64,000 nucleotides of DNA, from NCBI GenBank assembly GCA_964572155.1, contig CAZNDZ010000001.1, positions 143,300 through 207,299 on the forward strand, read 5' to 3'. Shown here piece by piece: positions 12,133 through 47,600 of this stretch. The stretch comes from an uncultured Planctomycetales bacterium. Lineage in GTDB: Bacteria > Omnitrophota > Gorgyraeia > Zapsychrales > Fredricksoniimonadaceae. A program made the translations under genes and the position numbers. Within the stretch, counting starts at the first letter, position 1. Each line of letters starts with the position of its first letter. A model generated the notes under the pieces. It made no database searches. It was not told where the DNA came from and worked only from the letters and a program-made list of their open reading frames with translations.

Positions 12133-12137
12133 AAAAA

Positions 12138-15006: not shown

Positions 15007-15012
15007 TTAACT

Positions 15013-23675: not shown

Positions 23676-26600
23676 CTATGCTCGCGCTTTTCTCTTTTTC
23701 TTTAACTTGCTCATGCGTTGTGCCGCTCTGCCCCTTGTCACAACACCAAGCAATGGGTGGTAGGATTCTTTATAAAGCTTTATAAATACCTCTTGGACGA
23801 TTTTTGGGATCGGCAAACTGACGATAAAATCTAATCGTCGGTTAATCTTCTCTAGCCAATCTTTTGCGGAGCGATCCATACGTGGCGTTAAATTTGAGAC
23901 GGAATCTGCCACCTTAATCACACCCAATGCAGCTAATAATAATCTGAGCGTCTCTTTGTCTTGAACTTGTCGAACGCGTTTGCGCATGGCATGTATAAAA
24001 TCCGCATCGGTTTCGCCGTTGCGTTTGGTGACGACATCAATCATGAATACAATTTCTTTAGCCGATGCAGCCTCTACTTGACTTAATAATCCTTCTAGAT
24101 TTGCTTTTGATTGTTCTAAGGTTTCACCAAAAGCAACTTCTTTAATCCTTGCTTCAACCCAATCATGCAATAATGCCGTGGACAAAGCCACATCCAAACG
24201 CACATGCAAATCATTTAAATATCGAAGTAATGGTCGATTATTAAGGACGATTTCCATAACACCCAACAAATGGAAAATATAAGGATGTCCGTCAGAGCGC
24301 TTCTCATCTTTATGCTGTTCATACGCAATGTCGAAAGCTTTAAGAATTAATGGCATATTGATATCTTGATCATACGCATAAGCCCTTGCCAATAAACGAT
24401 CAAACCATTCTCTAAAATACACAGCCACATACGCATCATATTGACGTTCATACGCATAAATAGGGATGTTGCTTAATCCCATGAAAGTTAAATCCACATG
24501 ATCCGAATACCTTTGTGTGAACTCAGGAATCTCATTGAACCATTTTTGGGCGGTTGTAATCAACATGCCTTTAGGATGAATCCATTGCACCAAGCGGTTG
24601 GCCACCAGAACGGTTGCCATGGGCTTGTTGGGATCTTGTTGGGCTTCCACCTTAAATTCCACCGCTTGCATCATAATCAGATCAAACTTTGTGCCATTAA
24701 TAGGGGCGTAATCTTCAATGCGCTCTTCTTGGAATTCAAAATATGCTTTGTACTTTTCTTGCAACTCAACGTGGTTAATGTCCGCGAATGCAAAGAAATG
24801 GTCGATGATCTTCTGTGTCTCTGTTGGAATAAAACGTTTTGCCGCATTGGTCTTGAAATATTCCAAATTGTACCTGCCACGCTTTGCAATGTTTAAGTCT
24901 TCTGGATTCGGATCAAATACTGTGATCTTAAAATTTTCTGGTGTTAACAGTTGGCCGCCCCATAATTCTGGATGAGCACGATTATCTTCTATGATATAAA
25001 CCAAAGCACGTACGGCATTAACAGCAGAAGGTTGTGTTAATTGACGCAGGTAAATGTCTAAAATATCAAGCCGCCCGCGTTGATTAAATAATTGTCTTAA
25101 ATTTGGGATGGATTTCTTAATCAATGTTACAGCACCGCTGTTGGATTTAAATAACTCGATCTTGTAACGAATGACCATGTTCTTAAAATAAGAAACATGT
25201 TGGTTGGCTTGTGCGCGAATTTGTGGGTATGTTCTTCCACCTTGTTCATTGTAGTAAATGGCAAATATTTCGTAGACGAGTGTTTGCTCTAGAACCATGC
25301 GATTTTTTAACGCTGCCGGAAATAAGATAACAACATAAATATGTTTATGCTTTGCAGCAAATCTGGTGTTCATGGCATAAAGCGTATTGCCATCTCCGAC
25401 GCGACGAGTCCACTCATCTTGCATTTTCTTATCAGCTTGCACAATCACCAATTCATTGCCTTCATTCTGGCCTTCTAGCATTTGAACCAAAACTTCTGGC
25501 GCTTTCATTTCATGAAAGAATTCTTCTATTTTTCCTCGAACATCTACATAATTTCGATCTGTCTTTAACAGACGTAATTCATGTTTAACTAAATTTAAAA
25601 TCTTTCCTCTATTAAAAAAAAGAAAATCATGCGCCTCTTTTAAACCTGCTTCATCTAACGGCAACAATGTCCGTGCAGGGTCAACGGACTTATTTTTTCT
25701 AATGTCTCGGCCAAGTGATATGAAATATGCATGAATCACACCACCAATTGCAGCGAGTGCCCAGCCATTTGATTTTGTAACAACAAAGATCGTTGTGCCT
25801 GGGAACAGAAAAGAACCTGGAAAAAATATTTTGTAGATGATGGTGCTTATCGCTAAAAATCCTGCGGCAACAACGAGTCTAGCTAAAGTTACATTGTATG
25901 CCCTTGGCCCTAGTCTATTTTGAATGATGTCAAAGGCTTGCTTACGAATCCACGCAAAAACTAAATAACTTGCGACGCTGCTACCAAATAATACGATCGT
26001 GGCTCCAAAACTATAAAGCATATTGTCATAGATTGGCCCAGACCCGAGGCTCATTAAATTCGCGATGATAAACGTCCAAATAGCTGTCTCTTTAATTGAC
26101 CTAAAATCTAAAATTTCATAACGTTCACGAGCTGTTGGATTTGAATGATTCACAAATGATGTGGCAACCAAGTTGCCAATATCTTCATTAACCTGATGGG
26201 ATAAACCTAAGATCGCACCTGCTTCATGCGCAATTGAATTTAAGATGTCTTTTTTATCTTTGTTGCGTTGTGGCATGAGAACGATGACGTTATATTGAGC
26301 ATCTTTAAAGCTAACCGGCAAATGGAATGCGGATATTTTAGGAGCGGCTACGTTACGCAAACGGTTGAGCCAAACTTTAATGTCATGCTTTAATTGCGCC
26401 GGTGCATTGATAACAATGGTGTGTTTATTGCGCAATAAATCGATCATGCGACCGATATTATCATTGTAACTAGAGTAGTTCTTTTTTAATTGCTCTAGTT
26501 GAGCAATTGTCTCTAAGATTTCTTTTTCATATGTTTGCGTCCCAGGGGCATTGTTTAAAACTGCCTCTAGGGCAAGCTCGATGCTGGGTACATATTTCGC

Positions 26601-29600
26601 AATGATCTTCCTTAACGATTGACGCTGTTGCTTTGTCATTTCCCAGGAACTACGTGCAACATCCTTAGCGTTATCTTTTAGTAAGAAGACTTCTTTATCT
26701 TTAAGACCAAAGATATGACTGACAGACCCTACATATTCTTGAGGCGTATTAAACTCTTTACCGCTTAATACAACCAAAAAGAATGTGAAAAGCTGATGAT
26801 TTGTTTTGAAATTAAGTTTGGCGATCTCTGTTTCCAGGCCCGTTTTTCTATCGCTTTCACGACGTAGATATAGTAAATATGGGATCGACCTCTTTAATAC
26901 AGCCATGGCAAAAATAAATTTCGCTGAGTGGCGCAACTGAAGCCTTGGGGCAAGTTGAAAATATTCTGCGTAAAGCGTCACCATTAAGAATAACAAGTCA
27001 TCATTCTTATAACCTTCAAAATCGATGCGATATCCAACCGCTTCATAGACAATCCCGCCGATATCATTGCCAACAGGAATTCTAATTGGAACACCTTCTG
27101 GCCAAGCAATTTTAAAAACCTTTAAATACTGCGCCTTAATCCATTGTTGTTTTGCTGCAACTTTTTCTCTTAAAGTAGGCTCTGGTGAATATACAATCGG
27201 CTGCGTCTTGATTGGAACAAAAATGCTTTTTGATGACTTGATTGGATCAATGATCACAGGGTCTTGCATATAATGTAACCATGCATGCGCTATAAACACA
27301 ACCAACGCTTCAATCCCAAACACATACAATGGTATTTTTTGTTGAAAGATAATACCTAAAACAATAAAGAGCCAAACAACCACATTCACCATATTTTTCC
27401 ATGTTGCTTTTGAAATGACTTCCGATGAACCTTCGATGCCAATCACTCGATCTAAATTGGAAAGCTTCATTAAACGTCGCTGGGCTTTAATCGCTGCCTT
27501 TTCTGTTGGTTGCTGTTCATGAGCGATAACATGGGCAATGAAACGCAAGGCTTGAGCTTGTGTTAAACCAAGCCTGTTGGTTAAAATATAATAGATAACG
27601 TCTTGAGGCTCTTCGTTATTTCTAACCGTGATCATCCATTTCCACGTCGTAACATATTGACCGTTAATCTTAACTGTTTTGCTTTGGGCAATCACACCTT
27701 GGGGCAGCATCGCATGTTCTTCTAAAAACTCTTTTAATGCTCTTGTCCATTTCGCTAAATCTCTAAATTGTTTAGCGCGCAGAACATCACGCTCTTGTGA
27801 AGCCGCTTTATCTTGTTCAAGGTCTGACCAATTGTGATGACTATCTTGAGATGTATTGTCGTTATATAACCATGGGAACATGTAACGGCTAAATCTTTCC
27901 CATGAACCTAATGACTGCAAATACTTCTCTCTTGCAATCTGGTTGATATCTTGAATGCTGGAACGGATCAACATAGCCACTTCATCATCAAAATACCGAC
28001 CCAAAATCAATCTGCGATACGGCGTCATCCATATCTCATTTAATTTAAATTTAATGTCTTCCCTATATTCAAAAGCCCATACAATACCCGCAACATAAGA
28101 TTCACCTGTTCTTGTATTCACAACTTGAGCAATGAGATTCTTTTGCAAATCACTGTTAATCATATCCCACGCTTCAGTGGCATTTAATTCTTGTGAGCTT
28201 GCTCGTAACCATATGTCTGGATAAAGTGTTGGTATGGTAAACGCGTCAGCGAGCGTCATGCTGCGGACAACCAAAACCGAATCATTCTCAGAGATAAAAT
28301 TATGCACCCGAATATGGGGCGTATTCATGATGTAATGGCTGCCAGTCTGATCATCTCTTAGGTTAAAAATATCTTTAAGCGTGACATCGATGCTCACCAT
28401 TTTTTTCTTGTCTAACGCTAATTCATGAAACCATGCGACTTGTGCGGCCAAGGCTAAGGATTCTGTTGGCTGTGCTTCGTGGCGTTTGATGTTTTCTAGA
28501 ATTTCGTATGCTCTTTGTTGTGGGAATTGCTCTAACAATAAGGCTCTGACGGTTGCTTCACCGTTTTCAAAAACAGCATTCCATTGAATCTTACCCGCTT
28601 CATGTTTCGCAAAATCAAAATGACGTAATTCACTGGCTGTTCCACGAACTCGTCCTAGACGGAGCAATTGGATGATGAAATCTTTCAAATCTTTTTCAAG
28701 CGTTGAAAAGCCTTCATAAGCAACTGTATCATTGCGGTACTTCATCTTTGCTTCGGCCATCCCTGCAATCGAAATCGCGTGACCTGCTTTCTTGGGTAAA
28801 CGAACAATGATTTGATAATAATCATCTTTTTTATTTCTGTAATCATCGACCCTAACCATAAAGCGTGGTGATTGTGTGATTAAGACAATGCGCTGCAATT
28901 TTCCTAATTCAAATGTGCGGGACAACCATCGCCCAAGCCAATATAAACGCCCATTGATGAGTTGCAATTTTCTGACCGTCAATAATGCATCCAAACGTTG
29001 CTCTCGGGTTTGAAAGTCTAATATATAAACTCGTTTTGTGTTAGGTAATGGATAAATCATCGACACGCCGCGACGTTCATCACCCCGTGAACTAAAGAAA
29101 TATCCATCATTAAACTTAGCCGCACCAAAAACTTCATGAAAACCAATTGCGGATTCAGGGCTATGGGTCATTAAAAATTCCACATTAGAATCTTGCATGG
29201 CCAACGCTTTGATATTGGTGATCAACAGCTTAGATAGATCTTTAGGGAAGTGGCTTCCATAATATGCCTTGCGATCTTTTGACACGCCTTTTAGATATGG
29301 GATACCGGTGCTGTGTGGGACAATGGCATTGCCATTAGGATCAAAGTTGTTTCGTACTTTCTGAATCGATTCCCAAATGGTTCCCTTCACATCACTTGAT
29401 TCAATTTTTGCTAACAGCAAATCATCCAACATAACTTTTGTCGTCCAGATAACAGAGCCCAAATAAGCACCTGAACCATTTTGTGCAACTTCAGCAACTA
29501 ACTGACCTTCAGGGTTCTTTAAAATCATGCCCCAAGCTTGATGGGCATCAAAGATATCTGACGGTGTTGTCATCCAAATGTCCTGTTGTAATGCAGCAAC

Positions 29601-32600
29601 AGGCAATGCGTCACTTAATGTCATGTGACGGATGATAACAACTTCGAAAACACCATCTTTGGTGCGATTGTAAATGCGCACATAAGGCTTATCGCTTTCA
29701 TATGCCTTGGGATCATCACCTTCTTGCAATTCATAAATGGAACGTTGAACGACTTCAATCGTTGCTTGACGACGACGATCTTGAGCTAATCGCTTAACTA
29801 GCAACTTTTGCGCTAAAATAGCGCGTTCTTCCGTCGACTCTGCTTCATGCACCCTAATGTGTTCTAAGATCTCGAATGCTCGATTGGCTGGGAAAACTTC
29901 GAGGAGCAACTTTAAAACCGTAGCTTCACCATTTTCAAATGCCGGATTCCAAACAATATTACCAAAATCATGGCGGGCAATTTCAAAAACACGTAATTCT
30001 TGCGGTGATCCTCGAATACGGCCGGTATCTTGGAGATATTGCAAGAACACCGTCAAATCCTTTACAAGATCAACAAATCCTGCCTTTTGCATGCCTTCAA
30101 TGGTCATGGGATGATCTTGATGTCGTTTGATGTATTTGATACCATCCGCGTCGACATTTTTAGCCGATATGAATTCAAAGATGGCTGCAAGCCCATGTAA
30201 ACCTGCCATTGCAAAAAGCGTATACTTTACAAAAACGGATATCACCCCAGCGGCTAGCAGCGATAGAATCGGCGCCGCACTTAATATAGAGTCAACCATG
30301 ATATACGGCGTGATCAAGGCTGCGACTGTAACAGGTTCAACATATAACCCTGCCGCAGCCAATAATAAGGCCGCAACAGCACTGGCAAAAAATCCAAACA
30401 AGAACGTTACGCCACTCACACCGTCGATACGACCTTCGTGAAAATTTACTCTGACTTTCTGTCCAAACATCAATGCCCCAAGCAAATGCCCAAACTCATG
30501 CCATGCGATGACGCCGGTATATTTCAATAAGTTTCTGACGCTCGACGATAAACCAAATGGCAATTGGTCGGTCCAAAGCAAAAGACCAAGATAGGCAGTT
30601 CCTGCAAAAACCTTGGTTCTTATAAAACCATTTAGATCCAACTGTTCGAGCCCATTGCCTTCGAATACTTTTGGATGCAAATATATTTGATGTGCTTGAG
30701 TTTTTCCAATCACGCTGCTGGCCGTAACCCATGTGATCAGAAATTTATTACTGGGATTGATCCAAGCAATTTTGAGGGGATCGATGGCTTTATTTGTTAA
30801 GAACTTTAATGTTTCTGGACTTAAAGCCTTCATGAAACGTTGACGTTCGACGTCATTTAATTCTCTTGGTAAATCGGTGCCAAAGTATTGCTCAACTTGA
30901 ACACCTAAGTTTTTTCCGTTCTCTAGAAGTGAGCGAATGAAATCAACTTGGCGTTTGATGTGTTTCACTGGATCAACCTGATAAAACTCTCCCACCACAG
31001 TGACTAAGCGTTGGGCAATTTGAATAGCATTCAAGTAACCTAAATCATCAAGTTGTTGATTCACAAAGATGAAGATAAATTCATCACCGCGATCCTTAAC
31101 ACCCTGCCATTGCGCCTTCATCGCTAAACCAACAGACTTAAATTCACCGTCCATTTTTCCGGCACTGGCCAACACATTTTTTAAACGCGCTGCCACATCA
31201 GGACGGCCTTGCGTTAAGCGATCTATCGATGCTTTAGATAGCGCCGTTAAATCAATTAATATGACACGATTATTGCGCAGCATGTCGGCCAACAAGTTCC
31301 CCATGGATAAACGTGGTTCTTTCGCTTCTCTAATATTAATGGTTTGATCCGGATGAGTTTGTAAGAAGTCGACCGCGAGTGTCGCAGCAAAATGATTCGG
31401 CTTTAATGTATGGTCTACATGGTTAGAAAACACAACACTATAGAGTTGCTTGAAGATATTGCGATAAACACCACTGTAACCATAACGCATTTGTGCTTGA
31501 TCGCTATCATATTGCAAGCCAACGTATGTATCGACAGATCTGTTTTGTTGATCTTTTTCAAAATCTCTAAACACAGCATCTAACTCATACTCAGCTTGCC
31601 TTTGTTCTTCTTCTAGCATCAAGGTTAAAATGGTGTTGCGGGCATATTCATCATCGGAAACAGCGCCTAAAATATCTAAGCCATCATATAAATGTTGTAA
31701 TTCAACAAAGTTTTCTGGTTTGCCTGTGAAATGATTTAAGGTAACATCAATGGCTTGTTGCTCATTTTCTCCTAACGCTTCATGTCCTAATATTTCATGT
31801 CGCAAAACATCTTTAAGCACCGCCAAAAATTTCGTGCTGCTGCGTTCATTCGTATTAAACGGCGGCAACATGGACATGGGGATCACATTAAGCAAAACGC
31901 GTCGGGTTTTAAAATCATACTGAGCTAAAATTTCTTTTGGAACAGCATTGGTAATTACAATGTTGTTCATGCGGCTAACAGGTAATGACAACCCTTCAAG
32001 TGCGGCTCGCACATAGGCTTGCTGACGGGCCAATAATTCATCGCCAGATGTAAATTTATCGGTGTCCAAACGGTGATGCCAAAAATCAAAACGTGATGGG
32101 TAATCAGATTTAATTTCAACAGGTGGCGTTCCAATGACGTCGACGATTTGGCCAGATGAAACTGGTTTTGGTGAACGGGTTGTATAGACTTTGGTCTGAC
32201 TGGTTGAATTCCAAGGATTGTAACGCCAGAAGGTGATCAAACGATCCAAGCCCTCTGGTTCAACCAAGGCCACTTCACTAAATGTTAAGACAAACATCTT
32301 TTGCACGGCCACCATATTGATTAACCCGTCATACATGATGCCGTATAATTTACGCACGTCACTAGATGCATCTCTAAAATCAACATCGCCTAAATGAATG
32401 TGATGATCCGTGACGTTGGAATTCTTACTATGGTCCGTCGCTTCTTCATTCGCTACTCTTAAGCCAGTGGTAAATACTTCAGCGCCGCCAGTAAATAAAT
32501 CACGGTAGCTCCACCCTGTTAATATCCCTTTGGTTTGCTTGGCAGTGGTTGCCACGTTGGCGGCGCGTTGAGGATCAATGGGTAAGAAGAAAAATGCCTT

Positions 32601-35600
32601 TGTACCACGTCTGACGCCACTTAAGAATCTAGCACCAAAATGGTCTTCGGCATTACCACCATGTTCAGCCACTTCTTGGGATGCGTGTGCAGTAGCATGC
32701 AATTTGCGTACTAAGATTTCTAAGAGTTGATGATAGGCTGATTCAGCACCGATCGCAAAGGTTGGCATTCCCAAACGATCCCACAGTGGATGATTCTTAA
32801 AGTAACGCATGACAATCGTAAAGCCATATAAGTTAAACAAGAACAACAATGTTTCAATGGTAACCGCAACAATGTTTAAATTCATGCCAAAAATAACGCC
32901 CGTGATAAACAGTTTGTTCCAAATCAACGCAGGGATAGAGAAGTTTAAAATTAAATATGAAACATTAAAAACCTTCCCCCACATAACTTCTTTAATACGC
33001 CACGCTAAATAATGTGCTTTCTCATTTATTGTTGCACTAACTGTTGATTCAATCGTTAATCCTTTATGATCAACTCCTAGAACTTGTTCGATTTTTTTGA
33101 GCGCATCATTGCGCAGGCGCATCAAATGTCTAAAGCCTTCTTTATTGATTTCCATCATGAAGCGGTACTGACGGCTATATTTTTGACGCATGCCGCGATG
33201 CAAGAACACGGCTAATTCGTTAACCAACCAAATCAATGCTGTTGTATCGACCGTTGATGCTTCAGAAATGCGGATATTCGCATCGGTGATAAACAAACGG
33301 CGACTAAATGGGGCCCCATCGCTAAAGCGTTGACCAATGCCCTTGGCCATGATGGTGTCAGGGCGATTATTTAAAACAAAAACACGCCCTGGAAACATGC
33401 TTTGCAACTTACCAACACCCGCTAAGGTTGGGAATGTTTGCCCTGAATCACTGATCGCAAAAAATATCGTTCTACGGGTCGCACCGTATTCGCGAGGATC
33501 ATCAACGAGCTTGTTCGACGAAATCGCTGAGATATTTAAATATGGGAAAATGACCTCTAATATTTCCTTAAGTTTTTCGCCCACCCATTGTGATTTTTCA
33601 AAACCTGTGATGATCAAATGTCGTTTCTCAAAATCAGCGATCTTATTCTTATGTATCTTTTCATGGAAATGACCATTGATCGCATCAACAAAGGCATTCA
33701 TGGCATTTTTGCTATCGTGTTCCCAATCCCAATCATTACGTACTTTGTTAAATGAGCTATTTAAGTAAGCTAAAATATTACGGCTAAGCACAAGCACCCA
33801 TGCGCTCAACTCTTTATCAAATTCTTTGGAAAGAGCATTTAAATCGATTGCTTGATCTAATTGTCCTGTTTGTGATAACTCATCGATTTTGTCCGAAACA
33901 AACTTTTCAGCCATCCCATAGAAGTAATCCTCTAATAAGGATTTTCCTTCAACAGCGTCCATCATGTCGGTGACAAACTTTTCGCGTGCTGACTCATCAA
34001 CCAACCCTACCTGATTACGCGCGAAGCGTTCGATCAACGTTAAAAATTTAGGTCTAAGTGTTGAAAAGCCCGTTGTGCGGCTTTTGATTTCATTTTCAAT
34101 AAATAGCGCTTCTAACATGGCCAACAGGTCTTGGGCGCTTTGATGGTTTAATGATGCTGGATTACTGAAACTATTGGTGATGCCAAGCAAAACACGGGCT
34201 GTATCTTCCATGTCAAACTTCACATAATTCTTAACACCAGCATAATCAACGAGCGGACGGTAGAACTGATTGTTTTCATTGAGCGACATCAAATTGTTAA
34301 AGAATTCATTCCCTGAAATCTCACGGCCTATATTCATGTTATAAACACTGACTTGGAAACGTCCATCCGCATACATGTTAAGATCTGCCACTTCACCTTT
34401 TCCGGTAATGTCCATGTCATAACGCTTGGTCAAATATCCTTTAGAACCATATTTGACTTGTAAGACCAATGATTCAGAAGCAAAACCGAAGAACTTTTCT
34501 TTCGTGTTAAAACCAAATGAGATGGCTTGATCGCGTGTAAAGAATGAAAGGCCATTGTTGAGTGAAGTGCGCACCACAACACCGAAGCTGCCTTCAGCGC
34601 GTTGTGCAAAGGCACGTGTGGCACGGTAACGATCATTGATAAAGAATGCGCGCAACACCCCTTCGACAAACACATCTAATTGTTGTGCATCTAAATGCCA
34701 ATTTCTAACGATTGCCGCTGCATTTTGATCCGCCAATAAAGCCTTAGTGATATCTTGGCGTAATTGATTTAAGCGCTCGCGTTGCTTTAACTTGACTGCA
34801 TCATCCGTCTGGTCAACTTCAACCCAAAGATCAGACAATGTTCTTCGTGGCTTATTAGCATTGAATTTAGAAATAGCTGCGGCATGTTGTTTAAAGATGT
34901 TGTCAATAACGCCAGCGATCGTGTTGCGGTCTTTGATGGATAAAGCCGTATTATCTTTAGCGACGGCTTCCAATGGCTTTTTGCCATTAAAAATATCTTG
35001 AGGTGTTTTAATAACATTTAAAATCCATGAGTTAATGACCGCAGATGTAAACATGCCTTGATTAAAGAATAATCGCACTGCACCGGAGGCTGGTGGAGAA
35101 TCGCCTGGGGTTTCGTCGGCAAACGGATAATCAAAAGGCTTCTTTACTTGTTCAACATGAAAGACATTCTTTAATAATTGGCGCAATTCATCATTATCGA
35201 TCTTACGCCCTAAAATATCAAAATAATCAAAATCCCCGTTATGAGTGATGGCCACAATCACCGTCTCAGTAGTCTTAACCAAGGCGCCTTGCGCATCAAA
35301 CGACCATACTTCAACATTTAATTCAACAAAGTCAACGTGAGGATGCGAAGCATTTGGCTTTGCTTTACCCGCCGTTGCAAAACGCACGTGACCAGATAAC
35401 AAATTGACGCCCAAGACTCCCTTTGCACCTTGCTTAATCATATGAATTACTTTTTTGGCCCAAGCACGTTCCATGACATCAGCAAGCAGAGGTCGTTTGC
35501 CTTTCATGGCTTTTAACATCAACATGCCATACCCACCTGTCGCATCACGGAAAGATTGGATCATACCTGCTGTTTGACCACCGCGGATGGTGATCATGGT

Positions 35601-38600
35601 CAATTGATTGCGTCTTGCTTCAACCGCCCAATCAGGATTGATTTCTGGTTCGAGTGAATTATCAATCCAACCAAAACCAAAGTTACCGCACTTAACCTCC
35701 TCATCGTAAACGTTATTTAAAACGTCTGTGATAAATGACAAAATAGTCGTAACCAAAAATCCAAAAACCATTGGAAAACTTACAAACGATACCCAAGAAA
35801 TAAAACCAAGATATCCCATCAATGAAACCATCAACAGTGTCAGATTTGATACAAACCCTGCCAATCGAACGCTCCAAGTCGCTGGTACGCGCGCATGAGG
35901 TTGAGCTTTGAAATATCCAACTACTGGTATTGCAGCAAATAATATTTGAGCTGGTGTTAGATTTCCTAGTAGATTGCTTTTATTTAGAAACTTACGGTCT
36001 TCGGTCACACCAGCTGCGAATGTATGCGCGGCTTCATTAACCACAAATCCTAAGACCAAGCTCACTCGAAAAACAATTATCCCAAGTAATGCCTGTATCC
36101 AACCACCACTCATGCCAATGCTTAGAATATTCAATAAATCTAATACCTTTAAATACCGATTAGGATTTAAAACTCCTGCTCCTCTATCATTATCCATCCC
36201 CAACCGCATGCCGCCTTGTGGCACGCCGGTTGAGCGGTCAATGATTTGAGCTGCTTCTCCCTCGCTGCTTAGAATTGCTTGCTCTGAAACTAACAATGTT
36301 GATCTTTCTTCATCATGAGTCAAGCGATGGGCGCGTAATTGCGCTAAATATGGGTCATTGTCATAAACAAATTTTTCGACGAATTGAATATGCTGATCAA
36401 ATGCATTTAAGTATTGAATGTAGGGAATGGTTCTAAAGCGGAAAACTTGGTCATTGCTTAATTGTGGTTCTTTGATGCTAGCGACTTCGTCAAACAAGAT
36501 AATTTTCAAATCTTGCGGTGGCGCACGTAATAACGCATTCATGTTTAAGTGAATCTCATTTAAACGCACCGTCGCAAAATATTTCAGACCATTGTTCACG
36601 CGAATACGAGGAGCAAAACCATTTAATTGTTCTCTGATAAAAGGCAGGACATGCTGATCAATAAATCGCAGTTCCACTGCTGTCGGCGCTCGCGGCTTGG
36701 CGTTGTGGTCAACTAATTCATCTTTTAAACGCAAAGGATAATTCTTTGCTTGATTCTTCTGAAATACTGATTCAAATCCATATGCAATGGAAATATGGAT
36801 GGGTTGGGAATTTTCCTTTGAAAATACACGACCAATGCCTTCTTGGAGACCTTCAAAATAGCTATTGATAGGGCTTGGTAAATCAGAGATTCCTCGAGAT
36901 GATAACAAGCTCTTTAATGTTCTGCCTGTCCTTAACATGACCAATGGAATGATAAAGTCACCTACAATATGTAAACTTCTAATCGGCATAACTTCTAGAA
37001 AACGATCATGCAGTTCATTTGAGTTTGGATCTTTAAAAAATAACGCTTGTTGTGCATCGATCCAATCCCGTGCATCTTTTATGCTGTACCCTAAAACATT
37101 TGTTAATACGCTAACTAACTTGTGAACCTGAGATTCAACACTAAACCATGCGCCTGACCGAATATACGCTTTTAATAAAATGTCGTAATCGCTCTCTCTT
37201 ACCCACTCAAATATTTTCTGAACATTGGATATGAATCTAACTTCTCGCTCTGTTGTATTAAAAGCAATGCGCATGAAACCTGTAAATGCTGGAAATTGTT
37301 CTAAGCCTAAATTGGCATAATCATATCGATTGAAGATATTATTACCCGCTAAAACTTTCTCAATCCTCTTGGCAAATACCAAATGATCATCAACAAACGG
37401 CTCAACCACCGCAACAGCCTCAAGTGTTCTTAAATCTTGAACAAGTACTCCCATTTTTTGGTTATTGGTGTCTTCTAAAGACATTTTCTGTGACGATAAA
37501 ACAATCTCACCTTCACGGCGTAATGGTCCTGTTAAAAATTGATCTCCAAAGGCCATATACAAAGCAGGTCTATCTGCATCATACATATCCAACAATGCTT
37601 CTTTAAGCGCATATAAGAACATGTCATCTCTGGCTGTAAAAACACCCTCCGAACCTTCTAACAATGACTTCGATAATAATGGCAATGTGAAATTTTCTTT
37701 TCTTAAACTTTCATTGATTGCTTCAAACATTTCCTTATCTTGAGCATCACCTGCTAATAATACAAGTCTACGTGTTTGGGTAATTGGCAAATCGAAGCGC
37801 GCCGCATCAATGAAATCTTCCCCATAAACTCTAAAACCTTCAGAAGGATTGTTTTTCGCGTATTTCCATAACTCGCTCAGCGTGGTTGATCTTCCTAAAT
37901 AATCTAAGGACATGAGAAACGGCCATAAACTGCCTCGTCCTACTTCCGTTGGCATAAAAATAATTGGGGTTTTATACAAGCTGGTTGATCGCATCATCAA
38001 ATATTCTTTTGAAGCACGAACAACATCCTGATCGTTTTCAACTGAGAAGATAATCATGTCGAGTGGGCTTGAATTGCTTTGTATATATCTTAAAGCATCC
38101 ATTTTCTTGCCCCACTGCAGCTGTTTAAAATAATCCCTTGTAAAAATGTGCTTCGCTCTTCCGATAAATATATTATTTAATTCCTCTTCAATGAACCTAA
38201 AACGACGTTCTACTAAATCAATGTCAGCTAATAACCCGGATTTGTTCTTCAATATGAATGGCAAATAATTAACTAAAACACCTGCACTGATCACCAATAA
38301 ACTTAATGTGGTCATTAATGTGAATCCTGTAAAAAATGCAAGATTTGTAAACATGATCGCTATGCCTAGGGGCACAAGAATTCTTCGACCAATCTGACTA
38401 TGACGCCAATAACGTTCAATAGAGAAATCTGTATCTTTCTCTTCTCCGCCTTCTAGCTTCTTCCCATCCTTGATAGAAATAAGTAATGCAGACCACTGTA
38501 TCAAAAATTCACTTGTTGATTCTTTATAAAGCCCAGGAATAAAACCATTGCTCTGATCATGAATCTTCTTAATTTGTTCTAGCGCTGACTGAATATACTT

Positions 38601-41600
38601 GTTTCCATTATAATCCAACCCCGTATGCCATGATCTTGCAAACTTCGTCCCATAACGCTGATAAAGATCTGCCAAATATTGACCTCTCGCAGATTTCCCA
38701 AAAAACTTAGGTATTGCATAATTAAACACACGGCGTGCAGAATAAATAGCCTCTAGCCCACCTAAGATATTATTGATCAATTGCCTTGTTTCTTGAATAA
38801 TCAGCAAAGCAAATGCTAAAACTTCTTTAAGCTCATCTGAGTCATCAGTTTTTGCTTGTTGATAAATGAAGTCCGTTATGATCTTATTTATCGATTTCTG
38901 TAGTTGGCTGTATGTACTCTTATATCTGACGACATTATCAGCAACCTTAATGGGGGAAGAAAAATTCTCTAGACGAATGATAAAAATAATCGTATTGAGA
39001 ACATTAGAGATTTCATCTGTCGTAAAGTATCTATCTTTTACATCTGTTTTCTTTTCTTTGATTTCAATAATCTGACTTAAATAATCCAACGCTTCTTGAA
39101 TCAACGTATCTTTATCTTTAGGTGTTTCAGAACGACCATTAGTCGTTGTACTCTGATTGACATTATTCTGACGATTATTTTCAATGTTTTTAATGGTGCG
39201 CACAAATGAGGATTTTGTTTCAACGGCTTGTGCCTGGTCAATTGATGCTTTAGGCTCATCATGCATCACAACAGAAATACTAGCCAATTCATTATTTGGA
39301 TCAAACGCAAATTCTTCCACAGGTGCTTGAGGTGCGGGTTTTGGTCCGTTAGATTTACGCTTGCCACCTCGAGGACCACGGCCATTGTTGCCCGTAATTT
39401 TGCGAATTAATCTTCTTAATAAGAAGTAAATGATCGCAACAACGGCTCCTGCGCCTGCAAAGCCAGCGGCAATTTCAGCAGCGCGTTGTGGCCATGTTAA
39501 GGTGTTTGATACATCATAAATGGTTTTCCAGTTAGCAACTTTGAAATCAAAGGTCTTATAAAACGTCTCCATCTCCAAAACGCGGTCGTTATAAAATTTC
39601 TTGTCGCCGTGTTCCAAAATTGGCAGCCATTTCCAAATCACATCATCAATTTTATCTTTATCATTTGCTCTTTGAATGGCCTGTTTGATTTCTTCTTCGA
39701 CAGCTGTATTCTTAAGCGGTGTATTGGTGTCTCTTACATTAAGTAGTTCTTTTAATTCTTGCTCGGCCAAACGTGCTGGTAAGGCATATTTATAATAGCT
39801 GTCGACCTTAGCCCAGTTTTCATTGAGTACCGCTGATTTCTCAACAACAGCCACAAGTTTTTGAACTAAAGGTTTATCTTGAACTGTAGGGCCAAAGTTT
39901 TCAAAGAGAGGTCGGACATGTAATATTTCCGCTGCGAGCAAAGCATTATTAAGATTTGAATTTTCTGTGACATTGATGCGGCGTTGCATTTCATCCGCCA
40001 AGATGCGCAAGGCATCACCATCTTTAGACGTTGCTAGAATTCGTAATGCTAAAAGCACTTCATCATTATTTGCTTTTGGATCCGCCAAAACTTCTTTTGC
40101 GATCTTTAAACGAATATCCACGGCATTATTTTGTGCATTGGCGCGCGTATTTTCAAACTGTGCCAAAGCCCATAAGACCTTGTCTCTTAAGACAGGATCT
40201 TTGAACTTTTCAGCTATCATATAAACCGCCAATGGATTACTCTTCCCCTTAAATTTAACTGGGTCGCGTTGTTCATCATAGTGATCAGACACGAGCGTCA
40301 TGATGGCATATTCACTATTTAAAACATCCGCCCCAAACAACCATTGATTAATCAAAGCCGTACGTGATCCTGTTGATTGAGCATACGTTAACGCGCTGCT
40401 GCAAACTGCTAAAGCAGAATCCATACGTTTATGGAAATCATGGATGTTAATCGTCATCTGGCTAAAGAACCGACGGGTTGCATCCTCATAATTAACTCTT
40501 GGTATCGGCCGACTTAAATTGATCAATGTTCTGGCGCGTAAAGGCTTGTCTTCAACAAGATTACTAAAGGTGCTTTGTTTGTACCCATAAGGCACAATAG
40601 CCCTAACCTTATCATGAAGGGTTGCATCAATTTCGGACATCAAGTTGATGGTCAACCATTCTTTGCCAATGCTTAATGGATCATTTTTGATTTTGTTTAA
40701 TTTATTCTGTGCCAAGAAATCTGGTTCAAGACCAGCAGCCATTTGCTTATATGCTTTAACAGCTGCAACAGCTAACTCTTGATAAAATTTCTGAGCAATA
40801 ACATCGCGGGTATCAATTGGATATTGTTCATTAAGATTCTCAATGACCGCGCGCAATGCACCCGCAGCTTGTGTGTTGTTTTGTAATTTACCTAAAGCAT
40901 CGATTGCGGCTTTGCGTGCAGGAACAAATTCATTTTTATCGTTAGCACGTTCGCCTAAGAATGTCACAATCGCATCATCCAAAGGCAATGTCTTCCATAA
41001 GCCTGCTTCTAATACAGACCCTAATGCCCCAATCATCGCCGTCTTATCATTATTTTCCGTTGTCTTCTTGGCCACATCAAAGACATTGATCACATCAACT
41101 GTCTTTGGATCAATGTTAACGATCAACCCTGTGCTTAACGTAACTTTTGATGCCGCGGGAACATTAGTAGAATCACGTAAGTTGCGCATGGCGCTCATTT
41201 GTGTTTGTAATAATAATTCTTTGCTTTGGCCTTGTGCCACGGTTGGTCGTTGTGGCAAGGCACGCAATTGACGATCAATCTGATCACGGACGACATTTTG
41301 ATCGAGTATTCTAAAGATAGATTTAACCTTGGTGATATGTGCTGACAATGATCCGGAATTAAACAAGGTCACATTAACCGCATCTTCTAAGATAAACTCG
41401 ATTAATGGTCTTACAAAAACTGGACTTTGCACATTTGCAGGGTTTAATTTTTCAAAGGTCATTAAAGCAATCGTGAATTTCTTGTGCGTTAATGCATCGG
41501 TTAAAATTTGTTGGGCATATTCATTATTGGTTTGAAGCAAGAAATCTACAATGGCTGCGGCTAACGCTGGATCAACGTTCTCTTCCTTTAATACAGCTGC

Positions 41601-44600
41601 TTGCTTGATCAATGAATTGTTATCGGCGGTATAAATGGAACCTACAACAACTGGGTCGATGTTAAGTGCGGCCTTAAACAAATTCATCTTGATCGTTGGG
41701 TTTGGATTTTCCATGGCCTTAGCTAATAAATTCAACATGCTTGGGGCAATGCGTTCTTGTGCCAATGTTTCTGAGGCGGCTAATCTAGCATTCATGGATT
41801 TGGAGCCATCTAATAAGATCTCAAAGGCATTGATGACATCTTCGGAGGCTGGATTACGTATATCTTGCAAAGCTAAGGCAATATCTTTTTCACCCTTCGC
41901 CCATGCTGCACGGATGGCTGCATCTAATTGCGCGTTAACAAAAGCGGTCTTGGGTAAAATATTGCGCAACGTCTTAATGCGTCCCATGACTTCGCGATAT
42001 GTCGATACGTCGGTGATGCTCCCTAAATGTAAGTCTCTGGCATTATTCACAAGCGTAGGGATTGCTGATGAGATCATACCTGATCCAGCAGCGGCATTGG
42101 CTATGGCTTCTTCTGCAGCCCGGCGGATGATGACATTGGCATCACCGGCATATTTGCCAATCACGGCTTGTGCATTGGTGTCTAACATAGAATTTAGCAA
42201 ATCAATGAGCACAACCATCGTCTCAGGATTATCTTTGAAGCGATCCATGGCCCCTTGCACTGCAGGTAATAACTTATCGTTGATCCCTTGGTATAAACGT
42301 GGCTTTAAATTAATTTGTTTAGCGGCGATCGCATAGGTCTTGATGCTCTCTGGATCCATTTCATTCTTGAAGCGTTCAACCAAGACTTCAACAGGGATGA
42401 TCACATTATTTTTTGTTGCGAGCAACAAGGCGCCAAATTCGCGTTCATGATTTTGGTTGGTGCTTAAATTGATCAAACGTTGCAATTGATCGCCAGATGC
42501 TGCGGCATTGTCCTTGGCAAATTGTGCATACCCTGTTTCTAATGCTTTTAAACGTGCTTCTAAAATTGGAGCGGCTGCTTGTAACGTTACATCTTTGCCT
42601 GCAGGGATGATGTTGAGCTTCTTTTTGATCTCAGCGATCAATCGTTCCACGTTCTTTGGATCTTTGCTCATGACCTTCTCTAATAACAGTAAATATTGGC
42701 GTGCCAATTGATCTGGGCCCTTAGCCACAATAGCTTTTTCAACTTCATTTTCAATCCTGCTTAAAGAATAATTGGAGCGATTGATTAAATAGGCTAAGGC
42801 GTCGATGATATGTTCTCTATAACCATCCCATATGCCTTGTTGAATGCTATTTTCTGAAGACTTGATTGAAAGCATCAGATCAAATAATGGGTCGATGGCG
42901 GTTTCATTTTCTAAAGCCTTCGCGGCTGTTGCTGCTGTTAAATATAATAACCATTCATCGTCTTTAACATTGCCACGATTAGCCTGTAAAACCTTGGTGA
43001 TGAAATCATGCAAACGCTTATCGCTGCTTAAACCCGCACCAGCAATGGCTGCTAAACGCACGCGGTTATTTGGACTATTTAACCCAAGCTGCTCAACCAT
43101 ATCAAAACCACGGAAATTATTCTTAATACCATCTTGTGATTGAACCAACCGGGCCCAGGTTTCAATGCCTAAGATCTGATTGTGTTCTACTTCTCGCGGT
43201 AAATTCTCAGCGATGCGGTTGATAATGTCAGCAATGGTTGGATTCCCAAAGGCATTGCCATTTAAGAAATAACTTAAAACTTGATTACCCTTGTTCGATT
43301 TATCCGCGACTAAAACCTTGGATGCCAAAATCAAATGTTGATATGCACGTGCACGTAAAACTGCTGGGTCATCACGCAAACGCCAGAATTCATCATAACC
43401 ACGTTCTAGAACACCAAATATTGTTTCTGTAGACAAAACTTCGAATGACTTCGCCTTCGAAACCAAATCAACAATCCCAGACCCTGTTCCATACGAAACT
43501 GGCTTAGTTGCAACGGGGCCTACAAAATAGGTACTTTGATAAGCCACTTTAATGGTCTCTGGTGTTACAACGCCTCTATCATTAAGGCGTTTTAACGCAT
43601 CCGCTTTTTGTGTATTTGTGCTGTTAGTATTTATGAGCACTTGAACGTCACTATCTAGATTTTGCTTTGTTGCTTGGCGCGTTTGTTGTGTTACAAAAGA
43701 TGCGCCGCCGCGTTGTGCATACGTGTTGGTTGATACTAACGCTGTCATTGCTCCAACTAAGATGGCTGCAGCAATAAATGATGTGAAGTTACCTGCCCCG
43801 TCAGTAAAGTCTTTCACGATATCATGGGCTTGATCGTCACCAACAATGCTTCTTAATTCAACAAGTAAGTCGCGCTTGATTTGTTCGATGGCGTCATTGG
43901 CTTTATTAAAATCTACCTGTGCGCCTTGGACGGGTTGTTTGCTTACGTCTGACAAGATCAAATAGGCTTGGGCAATGATTAATGCACGTAATTGAACTGC
44001 ATACGGTGCATCAAACTGGGTTGGTGCAAAATATTGCCCTTCGAGGATGGTTGCTTTCAAGCCACGGCTTAAAACGAATAGGTCTTCAAAGGTAACATCT
44101 TGATTATTTAAAAAGTCATTGATCAGTTTTTCTGGTGAGCCAATGTGTTCTAAAATAAACGCATTTATTTCATCTCCACCTTGCAAGCCATTGACACTTG
44201 CAATCTCTTGTCCAAGCTTTTTAAGCAAAACTTCAAACGCAGCGGCATTAAATGACACATAATTTGGTAAAAGCGTTTTCTTGGCAACATCAATAAAACC
44301 GTCGGACAAGGCATTAACACGCGCAACCAAGGTGTTTGGCTTGCGACCAAAGTAAAAAGCACGAATGGCATCATAAATTTCTTGGAAGCGCAACGGTTCA
44401 ACAACTGGCTCATCAAATGCTTGATCGAACAGAGATTCAAAAGTCTCGACGACTGGTTCTGGCGCAACCGTTGGTTCGTCCATCAACTTACGAACATCTA
44501 ACAATTGTTCTAACGTTTCTAGCCATTCTGCTTCAACAGTAAATCCAAGCGTATTGTTTGAAATAAACTCAAGGTAGCCTTCCAAGACAGCCGTTGGTTC

Positions 44601-47600
44601 TCTTAAGAAGAATTCTTTTTCGGCATTACGTGCGTCTGCTTCGTTGCCGCCAAACACGTGTGTTAACTCATGCACTAAAACAATTCTCAAGAAGCTTTCA
44701 AACGTATCTAAAGCATCAAACACCTTCACATCAATGAACATTGCCTGATCGCGTACTTCGCCGACATAAGGATTGTTTGAAACAATACGTAAGTTATTCA
44801 AAATATTTTGTAAATCTTCGTTAGAAACATCCCTCACACTTTCAATAGCAGCTCTAACATATGCTCTGCCTGCATCTTCTAATGGATATTCTTCTTGGGC
44901 GCCTTCGATGCTGAAACGACCTGGGTATGGGTTGACTGACTTAATCGCTGCAATCTTGAGGCGTAACGCTGTGATCCTCCCTCGGATCTTCATGCGCTTT
45001 TCACTGCTTAATTCTTGTCGATTCATGACAGTTTCTACAAGAATAAGTGTTAACTTATTGCTAAGCGTTGATACAGCTTTTGTGTCTGATTTAGCATCAA
45101 GCAACTTCGTCTCAATACTATCTAACGCATGGGCTATCTTTTCTTCTAATGTTGCGCCTTCCTCTGGAGGCAATGTTGGTCCCCAACCCGTCGATATTTC
45201 CCAGTTCGGATTGGTGTCTTTAAACTCAACTTCTTCTTTATTGCCCCTATATTTTCTAACACCAAGAATTGTTATCAAGATGGCTAAGGCTGCAGCGATG
45301 ATTTCTAAATATAAAATTAATACAAAATGAATGTCATTTTCAAGTTTCTCACCCTTGATATGTGCGCTATCTACCAGAGCGCGCAATTCTAATTCTCGTT
45401 TCACTGATGGCTCAACGACTTGGACGGGCTGTGGTGTTTCTTCTTTTACTGCTGGGATGACAATTCTTTCTTTGACTGGTACGCGGACAATTTGATTGGG
45501 ATGAATGATATTTGGATCTTTGAAATCCCCTCGGATATCCGTATATTTAGCCACATTGAATCGAGCCGCAATCTTGCTTAATGAATCGCCTGGGCGGACC
45601 GTATAATCAATATAGGTGGTGCGTTCAAAGAAGCGTGTTTCTTGAGCATATGCGGGTGTTACAAAGAAGTTCGCCGCGATGGCAAAGACGCTAATCGCCA
45701 ATAATCCAACCATTGTCGTTAATGTTGCTTTGCCGGATTGTTTTGGATCATTGTTTAAAGCAGCTCTTTTCTTGGCTAATTCTGCTCTTAATTTATCTTT
45801 AAGGTAATCTTTATATTCTTGGCCTAGATCTGGATCTAAAGAAGCTGCTGCTTGTGCTTGTGCTATTTCTGCTTTCAATAATTCTGTATCTGCGGCAACG
45901 ACCCTGGCTTCATCATTAATTTTTTGGACAGTGACATCTGTATCATTACGGCTAGCAACAATTGCTTCTGCTCGCTCTGTCGCTTTTTCATCTGTTGCTT
46001 TTTCTTCAGCATCAAGATTTGCGCGTTGTTGTGTTTGCTTGCTTTGTGCTTTCATTCCTTCTAAAATGGCATGATTATTGTCTAATAACGCTTGCGCAAC
46101 TTGTCCTTCTTTTACTACTAATGCAACTTCTTCATCTGCTTGGTTTCGAATGGAGCCTAGCTTTACCTCAGTTTCATTCCTCGCAGCCACAATTGTTTCT
46201 GCTAACGCAGGTGCTTCTTGATGTGTTCTATCGACGATCGCTCGTGCGACTATTCCTGCCACTTGAACATCTCTTTCTTTTTCAATATCTGCAGGTTTTA
46301 CTAAAGAAAGTGTCAACATCAAAGGTTGGAATAAGTTAATTGGTTCTTGAGGGGCTGCTAAAAGTAGTGGGGCTCTTACTTTATTTGCTTGAGGAGCATC
46401 ATTTGTTGGCTGTGTTTCTGTCTTAGCTGCTGGCGCCACATCCAACATCATTTGTTTGCGTAATTGCTCAATCGCATCTTGTATACCTTGAATCATGTCC
46501 ATCGTTACGACTTGCGGTTGAACTGGAGCTTCAACGGGTTGTGACACCGCGACGGGTGGTGCGCGTGGAGCCACTTGTTCTGCGACAGGTGCCGCAACTA
46601 CAACAGGCGCAGGTTGTGCGACAGGTAAACGTACAGCAATTGGTTTACTAAATAATGTGTTTCTAAGTGAAATCCCTGTCGTTACAACAGTAGTTGGTAT
46701 CACAGGCGCTGTTGGTGCTTCTGCTTCAACAGATGCTTGAGGCACAGGTGCTACAGGTGCAGCTGGCTTTTTAGATTCTTCTGCTTGCACACTTGCTCTA
46801 ATCCTTGCGTCAATAGCTGCTAACCTCGCCGCTATCTCAGCGCTTCTATCTTGCTTCACTACAGGATGCACGACTGTTGCTGCAACTGCAGGAACAACGA
46901 CGATAGGCGCTACATCAACATTAGGTGCTTGAACTACAGGAACAACTGCACTCGACACAATAGGTGCTGATATAAATGGAATTGGTTTACTAAAGAATTG
47001 ATCTCTTCTCGTAAGCTTTGGCGCAACAACTGGTGCTGCTGGAGCTAAATCAACTGGAACAAACGCTTCTGTCAGATCAAAATCTAAATCAAGTTCACTT
47101 ACCTCAGGGCTAATGACGATGCCAGCAAGTTGCTCACGCGCATTTGTGCTTGCCATTAACATGAATGGTCCAACGCTTGCTAAGACATCAGTTACGATTG
47201 GTGCCGCTTCAACAGCATCAAATGCGTTTGGCAAATCTAAGTCTAAATCAAAATCAATATCTAAACTTTCAACTGTTGGTACTATTGGTTGACGATGCAA
47301 TGTAACATATAAGTAATTATTTTCTGACAACAACGCATCTAACTGTGTGCGTGTCGTTGCTGTTACTTGATCTAAATATACTTGTGGATCGATTGGTTCA
47401 GGTTCAAATGCGATTTGTGGTTCTGCTATTTCTAGGTCTATGACATTGCGAAGAGCTTTTACATCCATTGCTACGCTAATTTGCTCAATGATAGCAGCTG
47501 CAATTTTTCTTTGTTGGGCCACGGCAATCGCATAATCTTCATATGACGGAAGAGACAACATTTGTAACATTGCACGATTTTGTGCTCTAATTCTCAATGC

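What the first reader, a model, noticed from the sequence alone, without database searches (positions are those of the whole stretch)
28047..30014. Tandem duplicated ~200-aa module of unknown function (two full copies plus a partial third)
- Copy A lies at aa ~11305-11510 (nt 29397-30014). Copy B lies at aa ~11760-11960 (nt 28047-28649).
- The two copies share ELR(V/H)F(E/D)(I/F)A(R/K)H(D/E).G.I.WN..FENGEATV..LLLE.FP..RA(F/Y)EILE.I..HEA.
- They also share a second block MTL(S/A)DA....L..DIW......E.....AW.MI.
- A remnant of the first block recurs at aa ~12115-12150 (LTQAQALRFIAHVIAHEQQPTEKAAIKAQRRL, nt 27462-27599).
- I do not recognise the family.
Basis: seen in the sequence. Interest (0 to 1): 0.55.

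Follow-up and report, generated by a model that had tools for sequence, protein, structure and literature searches.

The report
New repeated domain in giant protein
Inside a 13,416-residue protein of an uncultured Omnitrophota bacterium, a ~230-residue segment really is duplicated, and its first half (present three times) is a previously undescribed small domain that recurs next to unrelated enzyme modules in other Omnitrophota giant proteins; what it does is still unknown.

Summary
The window holds one 13,416-aa ORF (23676..63926, minus strand). Residues 11272-11500 and 11716-11955 align at 38% identity over 236 aa (E=6e-50), with no low-complexity contribution and no DNA-level repeat.

The unit is composite.
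- **N-half (~115-125 aa):** it belongs to an undescribed domain family. The motifs are H-x-Φ-S/T, G-x-I-x-G-P-P, an invariant W, and HE-x-x-P-T-E-E-x-A-I-x-A-Q.
- **C-half (~110 aa):** it has no relative anywhere except in a near-identical strain.

A profile built only from non-window homologs finds exactly three N-domains in the giant protein.

All relatives lie in long ORFs of Omnitrophota or PVC metagenome-assembled genomes. Where neighbouring modules could be identified, the domain sits next to unrelated ones (radical SAM, α/β-hydrolase, SecA-like, GT1, adenosine deaminase).

AlphaFold gives pLDDT 96. There is no match in Pfam, NCBIfam, PDB or BFVD.

My best reading is a non-enzymatic connector or docking domain between modules, amplified by internal duplication in a fast-evolving mosaic gene. 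A processing-boundary role is not excluded. Function is inferred, not shown.

The parts
23676..63926 (-). Giant ORF, 13,416 aa, about 22 candidate TM segments, almost Pfam-dark; it hosts the repeats
   Evidence: A near-identical strain fragment, P0001, is 94.6% identical over 5,917 aa.
29760..30113 (-). N-domain copy A (aa 11272-11389): HPMT...GRIRGSP...W...HEAESTEERAILAQ
   Evidence: Scores 47.4 bits with the profile built from non-window homologs. AlphaFold pLDDT 96.
29427..29759 (-). C-extension copy A (aa 11390-11500), predicted β-rich, lineage-specific
   Evidence: The model has low confidence here. No homologs.
28782..29426 (-). Spacer between A and B (aa 11501-11715); no similarity to other parts
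28392..28781 (-). N-domain copy B (aa 11716-11845): HAIS...GRVRGTA...W...HEAQPTESLALAAQ
   Evidence: Scores 48.6 bits with the non-window profile.
28062..28391 (-). C-extension copy B (aa 11846-11955)
27447..27836 (-). N-domain copy C (aa 12031-12160): HNWS...W...HEQQPTEKAAIKAQ; no C-extension; followed 16 aa later by a TM segment
   Evidence: 17.4 bits; shuffle maximum 6.4 bits. A positional ortholog with HNWS...HE followed by a TM segment is present in the syntenic relative L008.
27402..30239 (-). Single soluble loop (aa ~11230-12175) between TM segments that contains all three copies
   Evidence: Kyte-Doolittle scan; approximate

Best explanation
**Shown.**
- The repeat is an old intragenic duplication inside a rapidly evolving, mosaic giant gene of an Omnitrophota bacterium.
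- Each ~230-aa copy has two parts. The first is a ~115-125-aa autonomous α/β domain, which I call the HE-PTEE domain, from a new family seen only in long ORFs of Omnitrophota/PVC metagenome-assembled genomes. The second is a ~110-aa extension with no detectable relative outside this lineage.
- The domain occurs three times here, all within one soluble loop.
- It occurs 1-4 times in each related protein or fragment. It always follows a polar linker and lies next to unrelated modules, directly adjacent to radical SAM and α/β-hydrolase and near SecA-like, GT1 and adenosine deaminase.

**Inferred.**
- The domain is a non-enzymatic inter-module connector. It is a compact fold that insulates or caps neighbouring cassettes, and it probably mediates docking between modules or chains. 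This would be analogous to docking or carrier-type connector domains of megasynthases.
- It is probably cytoplasmic, because its neighbours are cytoplasmic-type enzymes.
- Its repetition results from cassette duplication and shuffling within these genes.
For: **Duplication.** 38% identity, E=6e-50. The N-half is 52% identical and the C-half 27%.

**Family.** An exhaustive profile search of 1.84 billion representatives found 5 distant proteins, matching profile positions 1-~125 only. All five are named Candidatus Omnitrophota. Further loci are L001-L007 and L017.

**Three copies.** They are detected with a profile that contains no window sequence, and this is supported by a shuffle control.

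**Autonomous fold.** pLDDT 96.2, pTM 0.87.

**Boundary position.**
- The domain ends 46 aa before a Radical_SAM domain.
- It starts 16 aa after an α/β-hydrolase domain.
- In other proteins it lies in the same chains as TreT_GT1, PRPP-synthase, SecA_DEAD and A_deaminase modules.
- Upstream flanks are polar, linker-like sequence.

**Conserved Thr/Ser explained structurally.** T4 and T94 sit exactly at the N-cap of predicted helices 5-11 and 95-113. There is no HExxH and no Cys.

**Cassette mobility and rapid turnover.**
- Two identical domain copies in P0003 have different downstream sequence.
- The syntenic giant orthologs are only 26-33% identical where GlmS is 85% identical.
- The giant gene's sequence is unrelated or absent in other relatives.
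Against: - No direct evidence exists for any interaction or for lack of catalysis.
- Invariant polar residues (His-Glu, Gln, plus the N-terminal His) are more typical of an active or ligand site than of a passive connector.
- The sample is small, about 20 copies from about 12 proteins or fragments.
- The cytoplasmic location is inferred only from neighbouring enzyme types.
Confidence: 0.45

Rival explanations
1. Processing boundary. The HE-PTEE domain marks where the giant polyprotein is cut. Either it cleaves itself at its N-terminal H-x-Φ-S/T edge, using the invariant His-Glu, or it is the recognition handle for a protease.
For: - The N-terminal edge H-x-[ILMFW]-[ST] is sharply conserved directly after variable polar linkers in 16 of 18 copies. 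It is also retained in the 33%-identical ortholog of copy C.
- His-Glu is invariant.
- The domain sits between unrelated modules.
- Whether these giant proteins are cleaved is an open question, and cleavage points are unknown (bioRxiv 10.1101/2023.11.21.568195).
- From my own knowledge, H-Φ|S/T is the cis-autoproteolysis motif of GPS/GAIN, Nup98 and ZU5.
Against: - Here the His is at -3 rather than -2 relative to the Ser/Thr.
- The conserved Thr/Ser is at a predicted helix N-cap, which explains it structurally.
- There is no fold match to any autoproteolytic domain.
- A copy at the extreme C-terminus of P0002 would release nothing.
- No fission ORF starting at the domain was seen. The one split ortholog, L016, is split by a frameshift at a site with no detectable copy of the domain.
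Confidence: 0.2
2. Small catalytic or metal/ligand-binding regulatory domain. The invariant H, E, Q and W, plus the N-terminal His, would form a binding or active site that senses or modifies something for the adjacent module.
For: H89-E90, Q102 and W55 are invariant, and H1 is nearly invariant, across about 18 copies at only ~25-55% overall identity.
Against: - There is no similarity to any known metal-binding or enzyme family.
- Neighbouring modules are functionally unrelated, so a common ligand is hard to rationalise.
- The PTEE part looks like a helix capping box (plus established knowledge of capping boxes).
Confidence: 0.15
3. Histidine-kinase-like phosphotransfer (H-box/DHp-like) element. 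HE-x-x-P would resemble the HisKA H-box (H-E-x-x-x-P) and feed a downstream HATPase_c.
For: By eye, in P0003 and P0002 a copy lies upstream of an HATPase-like segment, and the helix-Pro-kink-helix arrangement around the His is similar.
Against: - No HisKA or HPt match even at E<=10 in any of 12 members.
- The Pro spacing differs by one residue.
- Most copies, including all three in the window, have no HATPase nearby.
- The HATPase assignment in P0003 is not supported by Pfam at E<=1e-4.
Confidence: 0.04
4. The similarity is chance, a compositional artefact, or lies in a non-coding or mis-called ORF.
For: None.
Against: - E=6e-50 between the copies.
- An independent profile recovers the copies, with a shuffle control.
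- The frame is open for 40 kb, and the same ORF is present in a near-identical strain.
- Only short ORFs (<=104 aa) occur on the other strand.
Confidence: 0.01

Closest known systems
Omnitrophota giant proteins ('Archaeovorins'; 'multi-enzyme metabolic cluster' and 'Pfam-dark' long proteins) described in bioRxiv 10.1101/2023.11.21.568195 and 10.64898/2026.06.07.730766
   Same: - Phylum: all named GlmS relatives are Omnitrophota.
- Size above 10,000 aa, with many TM segments.
- Internal repeats that survive only at protein level.
- Assembly breaks at the gene.
- The homolog-bearing proteins are multi-enzyme fusions.
   Different: - The window protein has essentially no Pfam content.
- It has no C39 or S8 peptidase, dockerin or TSP3.
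- The repeated domain found here is not mentioned in either paper.
Connector, docking and carrier domains of megasynthases (PKS/NRPS ACP/PCP and docking domains); analogy from my own knowledge
   Same: A small (~80-120 aa), mostly helical, autonomous domain that recurs between unrelated catalytic modules of very large polypeptides.
   Different: - No sequence or fold similarity.
- No GxDS phosphopantetheine site.
- The neighbours are not assembly-line enzymes.
Module-delimiting elements of polymorphic and MARTX toxins (pre-toxin PT-VENN/PT-TG motifs, CPD-processed linkers); analogy from my own knowledge
   Same: A conserved element at cassette boundaries in large, rapidly shuffling multi-module proteins, associated with cassette replacement. 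A ~400-aa hypervariable patch lies ~190 aa downstream of copy C.
   Different: - No toxin or immunity context.
- The element is a folded 115-aa domain rather than a short motif.
- No cysteine protease domain was detected.
GPS/GAIN, Nup98 and ZU5 cis-autoproteolytic motifs (H-Φ|S/T); own knowledge
   Same: A conserved His, hydrophobic residue, then Ser/Thr at a domain edge.
   Different: - The spacing is H-x-Φ-S/T.
- The fold is α/β-helical rather than β-sandwich.
- No structural match.
HisKA H-box (PF00512)
   Same: A His-Glu followed by a Pro kink in a long helix.
   Different: No profile match, different spacing, and usually no kinase ATPase downstream.

Membership tests
Any curated protein family (Pfam-A, NCBIfam, PHROGs, PADLOC) | Profile match at or near the curated threshold | tested here: not met
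   - Whole giant protein: only sub-threshold or partial hits.
- 12 domain members at E<=10: no family shared by more than 2 members.
- NCBIfam: none consistent.
- PHROGs and PADLOC: none.
Any solved structure / known fold | Sequence-profile or structural match to a PDB chain | tested here: not met
   - PDB profile searches: best E=0.17.
- Foldseek against PDB with the pLDDT-96 model: best E=2.1, TM<=0.3.
- BFVD: best E=0.9.
Zincin metalloproteases | HExxH (or HxxEH) zinc-binding motif within the domain | tested here: not met
   The consensus is H-E-x-x-P-T-E-E with no second His.
HisKA / DHp phosphoacceptor domain | HisKA profile match and a downstream HATPase_c | tested here: not met
   No HisKA hit at E<=10. 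No HATPase_c in the window protein or after most copies.
Cis-autoproteolytic domains (GPS/GAIN, SEA, Nup98, ZU5) | H-Φ|S/T or G|S scissile motif inside a β-rich fold; actual cleavage | tested here: inconclusive
   The motif H-x-Φ-S/T is only similar, and the fold does not match. Cleavage is not testable with these tools.
Tandem repeat (head-to-tail array) | Adjacent copies without unrelated spacer | tested here: not met
   Spacers of 215 and 75 aa show no similarity. There is no DNA tandem or direct repeat.
Omnitrophota giant-protein class | Encoded in an Omnitrophota genome | tested here: met
   For GlmS in the window, all named relatives are Candidatus Omnitrophota/Omnitrophica. All domain homologs are named Omnitrophota.
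Omnitrophota giant-protein class | Very long single ORF with multiple TM segments | tested here: met
   13,416 aa with 22 candidate TM segments. Syntenic relatives carry ORFs of 16,419, 26,141 and 16,313 aa.
Omnitrophota giant-protein class ('Archaeovorin' sensu West-Roberts) | Characteristic Pfam content (GT, TPR, HATPase_c, C39/S8 peptidase etc.) | tested here: not met
   Only weak HEAT_2, LysM (partial), HHH_3 and HD_4 signals. It fits the 'Pfam-dark' fraction of the 2026 preprint instead.

The most novel reading that the evidence does not exclude
The HE-PTEE domain is the long-sought processing signal of Omnitrophota giant polyproteins. Each copy would define, and perhaps itself catalyse through the invariant His-Glu, a cleavage at its conserved H-x-Φ-S/T edge. 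Copy positions would then predict the mature products of these 10,000-150,000-aa proteins.
Probability: 0.17. Interest if true: 0.85.

Novelty: new variant of a known kind. Interest (0 to 1): 0.55.

Why it matters
Omnitrophota giant genes encode the largest predicted proteins known. Two open questions are how they are organised into functional units and whether they are cleaved, and published work states that cleavage points are unknown. A compact, confidently folded, sequence-recognisable domain that recurs beside unrelated enzyme modules provides three things:

1. A first practical marker for parsing the "dark" parts of these proteins into cassettes.
2. A concrete, small construct for testing cleavage, docking or metal binding experimentally.
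3. A candidate new fold and family for the domain databases.

The duplicated C-extension and the neighbouring hypervariable patch also illustrate how fast these genes are remodelled by internal duplication and cassette replacement.

Tried and rejected
- **Word-indexed homolog searches** with the two-copy alignment and with the 13-member alignment found nothing. The exhaustive HMMER search was needed.
- **Pattern scans** of genome and metagenome collections with the window copies found nothing. A tighter alignment of four non-window members was needed.
- **Family and sequence searches** were all negative: Pfam, NCBIfam, PHROGs, PADLOC, PDB sequence profiles, and phage and plasmid tblastn.
- **The C-extension** was searched for in all fetched relatives and not found. 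Its structure model has low confidence.
- **Juxtamembrane-domain idea** rejected: there is no consistent distance to TM segments.
- **HisKA H-box idea** rejected.
- **Recent DNA duplication** rejected.
- **Opposite-strand genes** rejected: only ORFs of 104 aa or less.
- **Constraint from the near-identical strain P0001** was uninformative. The whole region is 100% identical.
- **A/B orthologs in syntenic relatives** could not be recovered. The flanks reachable from glmS cover only the last ~1,900 aa, and the giant genes are too divergent or unrelated.
Full report
**1. What is in the window**

The region lies inside a single ORF at 23676..63926 on the minus strand, 13,416 aa long. Downstream on the same strand are ordinary bacterial housekeeping genes:
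- a DNA-alkylation repair gene, a methyltransferase, a PBP5-type carboxypeptidase and a DsbA-like gene
- glmS, the pyrR-pyrB-pyrC and pyrK-pyrD-pyrF genes, and fpg

GlmS has an identical database entry on a 1.34-Mb contig. Every named relative is Candidatus Omnitrophota/Omnitrophica.

The giant ORF is almost silent in Pfam. It gives only weak or partial HEAT_2, LysM, HHH_3 and HD_4 signals. A hydropathy scan finds about 22 candidate transmembrane segments.

It therefore belongs to the Omnitrophota giant-gene phenomenon described in bioRxiv 10.1101/2023.11.21.568195 and 10.64898/2026.06.07.730766. More precisely, it fits the "Pfam-dark" fraction.

**2. The observation**

- BLASTP of aa 11150-11600 against 11601-12100 gives one alignment: 11272-11494 versus 11716-11950, 90/236 identical (38%), E=6e-50.
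- Identical columns are spread over W, H, F, N, M, R, P and G. The refutation criterion of low-complexity similarity is therefore not met.
- At DNA level only ~20-nt stretches encoding the HE..TE motif are alike, so the duplication is old.
- The other strand carries only ORFs of 104 aa or less.
- The copies are not head-to-tail. Unrelated spacers of 215 and 75 aa separate them.

**3. The unit is composite**

An exhaustive HMMER search of 1.84 billion representative proteins with the A+B profile returned six proteins.
- P0001 is the C-terminal 5,926 aa of the same protein from a near-identical strain (94.6% identity).
- The other five match profile positions 1-~125 only.
- All five are Candidatus Omnitrophota proteins. 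Four are annotated partial, and each nearly fills its contig.

The second half of the module (aa 11390-11500 and 11846-11955) has no relative anywhere. Between A and B the N-half is 52% identical and the C-half 27%.

**4. The N-half is a new domain family**

Aligning the instances gives a ~115-125-aa domain with these features:
- an N-terminal H-x-[ILMFW]-[ST] directly after variable polar linkers
- a conserved Phe
- G-x-I-x-G-P-P
- an invariant Trp
- a C-terminal (I/L)-x-x-H-E-x-x-P-T-E-E-x-A-I-x-A-Q, with His-Glu and Gln invariant

A profile built only from the non-window homologs finds exactly three copies in the 13,416-aa protein:

| Copy | Residues matched | Score | Profile positions |
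|---|---|---|---|
| A | 11281-11380 | 47.4 bits | 21-116 of 120 |
| B | 11718-11835 | 48.6 bits | 2-115 of 120 |
| C | 12051-12154 | 17.4 bits | 21-114 of 120 |

The best score in 200 block-shuffled versions of the protein is 6.4 bits.

Its positional ortholog is present in a syntenic relative, L008 (GCA_964520655.1). That ortholog also runs HNWS...W...HE and is followed by a TM segment. This holds even though the giant proteins are only 26-33% identical there, while GlmS is 85% identical.

**5. Structure**

With 13 sequences AlphaFold2 gives mean pLDDT 96.2 and pTM 0.87. The predicted elements are:
- a short N-terminal strand
- helices 5-11, 14-29 and 37-41
- a β-hairpin at 46-55, ending in the invariant Trp
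- helices 63-73, 76-90 (containing the His-Glu at its C-terminal end) and 95-113

Both conserved Thr/Ser residues (T4, T94) sit at the N-cap of helices. P-T-E-E reads as a capping box, which is a structural explanation for part of the conservation.

Comparisons with known structures and families were negative:
- Foldseek finds nothing in PDB (best E=2.1, TM<=0.3) or BFVD.
- PDB sequence profiles find nothing.
- Pfam and NCBIfam scans of 12 members find nothing consistent.
- The C-extension was modelled only with two sequences and is low-confidence.

**6. Where the domain sits**

In the window all three copies lie in one ~940-aa soluble loop between TM segments at about aa 11211 and 12176.

In relatives the domain lies next to unrelated modules:
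- In P0002/L003 it ends 46 aa before a radical-SAM domain.
- In the same protein another copy starts 16 aa after an α/β-hydrolase domain.
- P0004 carries it between a TreT-type GT1 module and a PRPP-synthetase module.
- In P0005 it precedes a SecA-DEAD-like module.
- In P0006 it precedes an adenosine-deaminase-like module.
- P0003 has two identical copies followed by different sequence, which suggests cassette duplication.

There is no consistent distance to TM segments. All additional loci found by pattern scan encode the domain within long open frames. These are five new loci (L001, L004-L007), labelled Omnitrophota or "uncultured Planctomycetales" MAGs or unlabelled metagenome (L007), plus L017.

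**7. Evolutionary setting**

The giant gene is conserved in position, upstream of the DNA-alkylation gene and glmS, but not in content:

| Relative | Giant gene at the syntenic site |
|---|---|
| L008 | 16,419 aa, 26-33% identical |
| L014 | 26,141 aa, no detectable similarity in the last 1,871 aa |
| L016 | 16,313 + 1,947 aa, split by a frameshift |
| L015 | absent |

Between the window and the near-identical strain P0001, everything is ~99-100% identical except a ~400-aa patch at 24-69% identity, which starts ~190 aa downstream of copy C. Internal duplication, as in A/B, and cassette replacement thus appear to be the normal mode of evolution for this gene.

**8. How it most likely works**

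Shown:
- a real, old, intragenic duplication
- a composite unit
- a new, autonomously folding domain family restricted to Omnitrophota-type giant proteins, located beside unrelated modules

Inferred, with confidence about 0.45: the domain is a non-enzymatic connector or docking element that caps and insulates cassettes and may mediate contacts between modules or chains.

Rivals:
- **Processing boundary, about 0.2.** This would involve self-cleavage or protease recognition at the H-x-Φ-S/T edge. It is attractive because cleavage points in these proteins are explicitly unknown. It is weakened by the N-cap explanation, by the lack of any autoproteolytic fold, and by a copy at an extreme C-terminus.
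- **Metal- or ligand-binding or catalytic module built on the invariant His-Glu, Gln and Trp, about 0.15.**
- **Histidine-kinase H-box-like element, about 0.04.** There is no HisKA match.
- **Chance or artefact.** This is excluded.

**9. Novelty**

Neither paper on Omnitrophota giant proteins mentions this domain, and no curated library contains it. The kind of object is known: repeats in Omnitrophota giant proteins. The domain family and its boundary position are new. I rate it a new variant of a known kind, with interest 0.55.

Noticed in passing
window 25677-26894 (-), giant aa ~12345-12750: A hypervariable patch. A strain that is otherwise ~99-100% identical (P0001, Logan assembly) is only 24-69% identical here. 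The patch covers an 'INAPAxL...LMPQRxKD...NSIxHExGA' segment and two TM helices, and looks like an allelic cassette replacement.
   Followed up: partly
window 30486-30500 (-), giant aa 11143-11147: An HEFGH motif inside a hydrophobic, TM-rich stretch about 125 aa upstream of copy A. It is reminiscent of site-2 (M50) intramembrane metalloproteases, but Pfam is silent. Two other HExxH motifs lie at aa 6419 and 10088.
   Followed up: no
window 49515-49823 and 47763-48059 (-), giant aa 4702-4804 and 5290-5388: The only other significant internal repeat in the giant protein: 30% identity over 104 aa, E=7e-9. It is uncharacterised.
   Followed up: no
giant aa ~10900-10960, ~12505-12590, ~12840-12900; P0004 aa ~560-620: By eye, a second recurring unannotated element of the form '...PPF/LMP...(V/I)L(R)HE(I/F)...HE...', shared between the window protein and the Omnitrophota protein P0004. 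It may be another boundary-type module. It was not tested statistically.
   Followed up: no
L008, L014, L015, L016, L017 (syntenic loci of relatives): The giant gene keeps its position upstream of the DNA-alkylation gene and glmS, but its length and sequence turn over drastically. In the four relatives with a complete or near-complete gene call it is 16,419 aa at 26-33% identity, 26,141 aa with no similarity, 16,313+1,947 aa split by a frameshift, or absent, while GlmS stays 72-85% identical. L017 holds only a contig-truncated fragment (at least 2,194 aa) that carries one copy of the domain.
   Followed up: partly
window 16399-17058 (+) and 14989-16254 (+): An IS200/Y1 transposase and a Peptidase_S74 (intramolecular-chaperone) domain protein interrupt the housekeeping block between the TP_methylase gene that follows glmS and pyrR. 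Relatives carry one or two S74 proteins, and sometimes toxin-antitoxin genes, at the same spot.
   Followed up: no
window 23889-24338 (-), giant aa ~13197-13346: A weak HD_4 (RelA/SpoT-type HD) signal near the C-terminus of the giant protein (E=0.041, below threshold). By eye, a GlmS-like amidotransferase/SIS-looking stretch lies around aa ~9600-10300, which Pfam did not report.
   Followed up: no
L011, L012, L013 (contig ends): Several metagenomic contigs of close relatives end within ~200 nt upstream of the DNA-alkylation gene, at the 3' end of the giant gene. This is consistent with assembly fragmentation inside giant genes.
   Followed up: no
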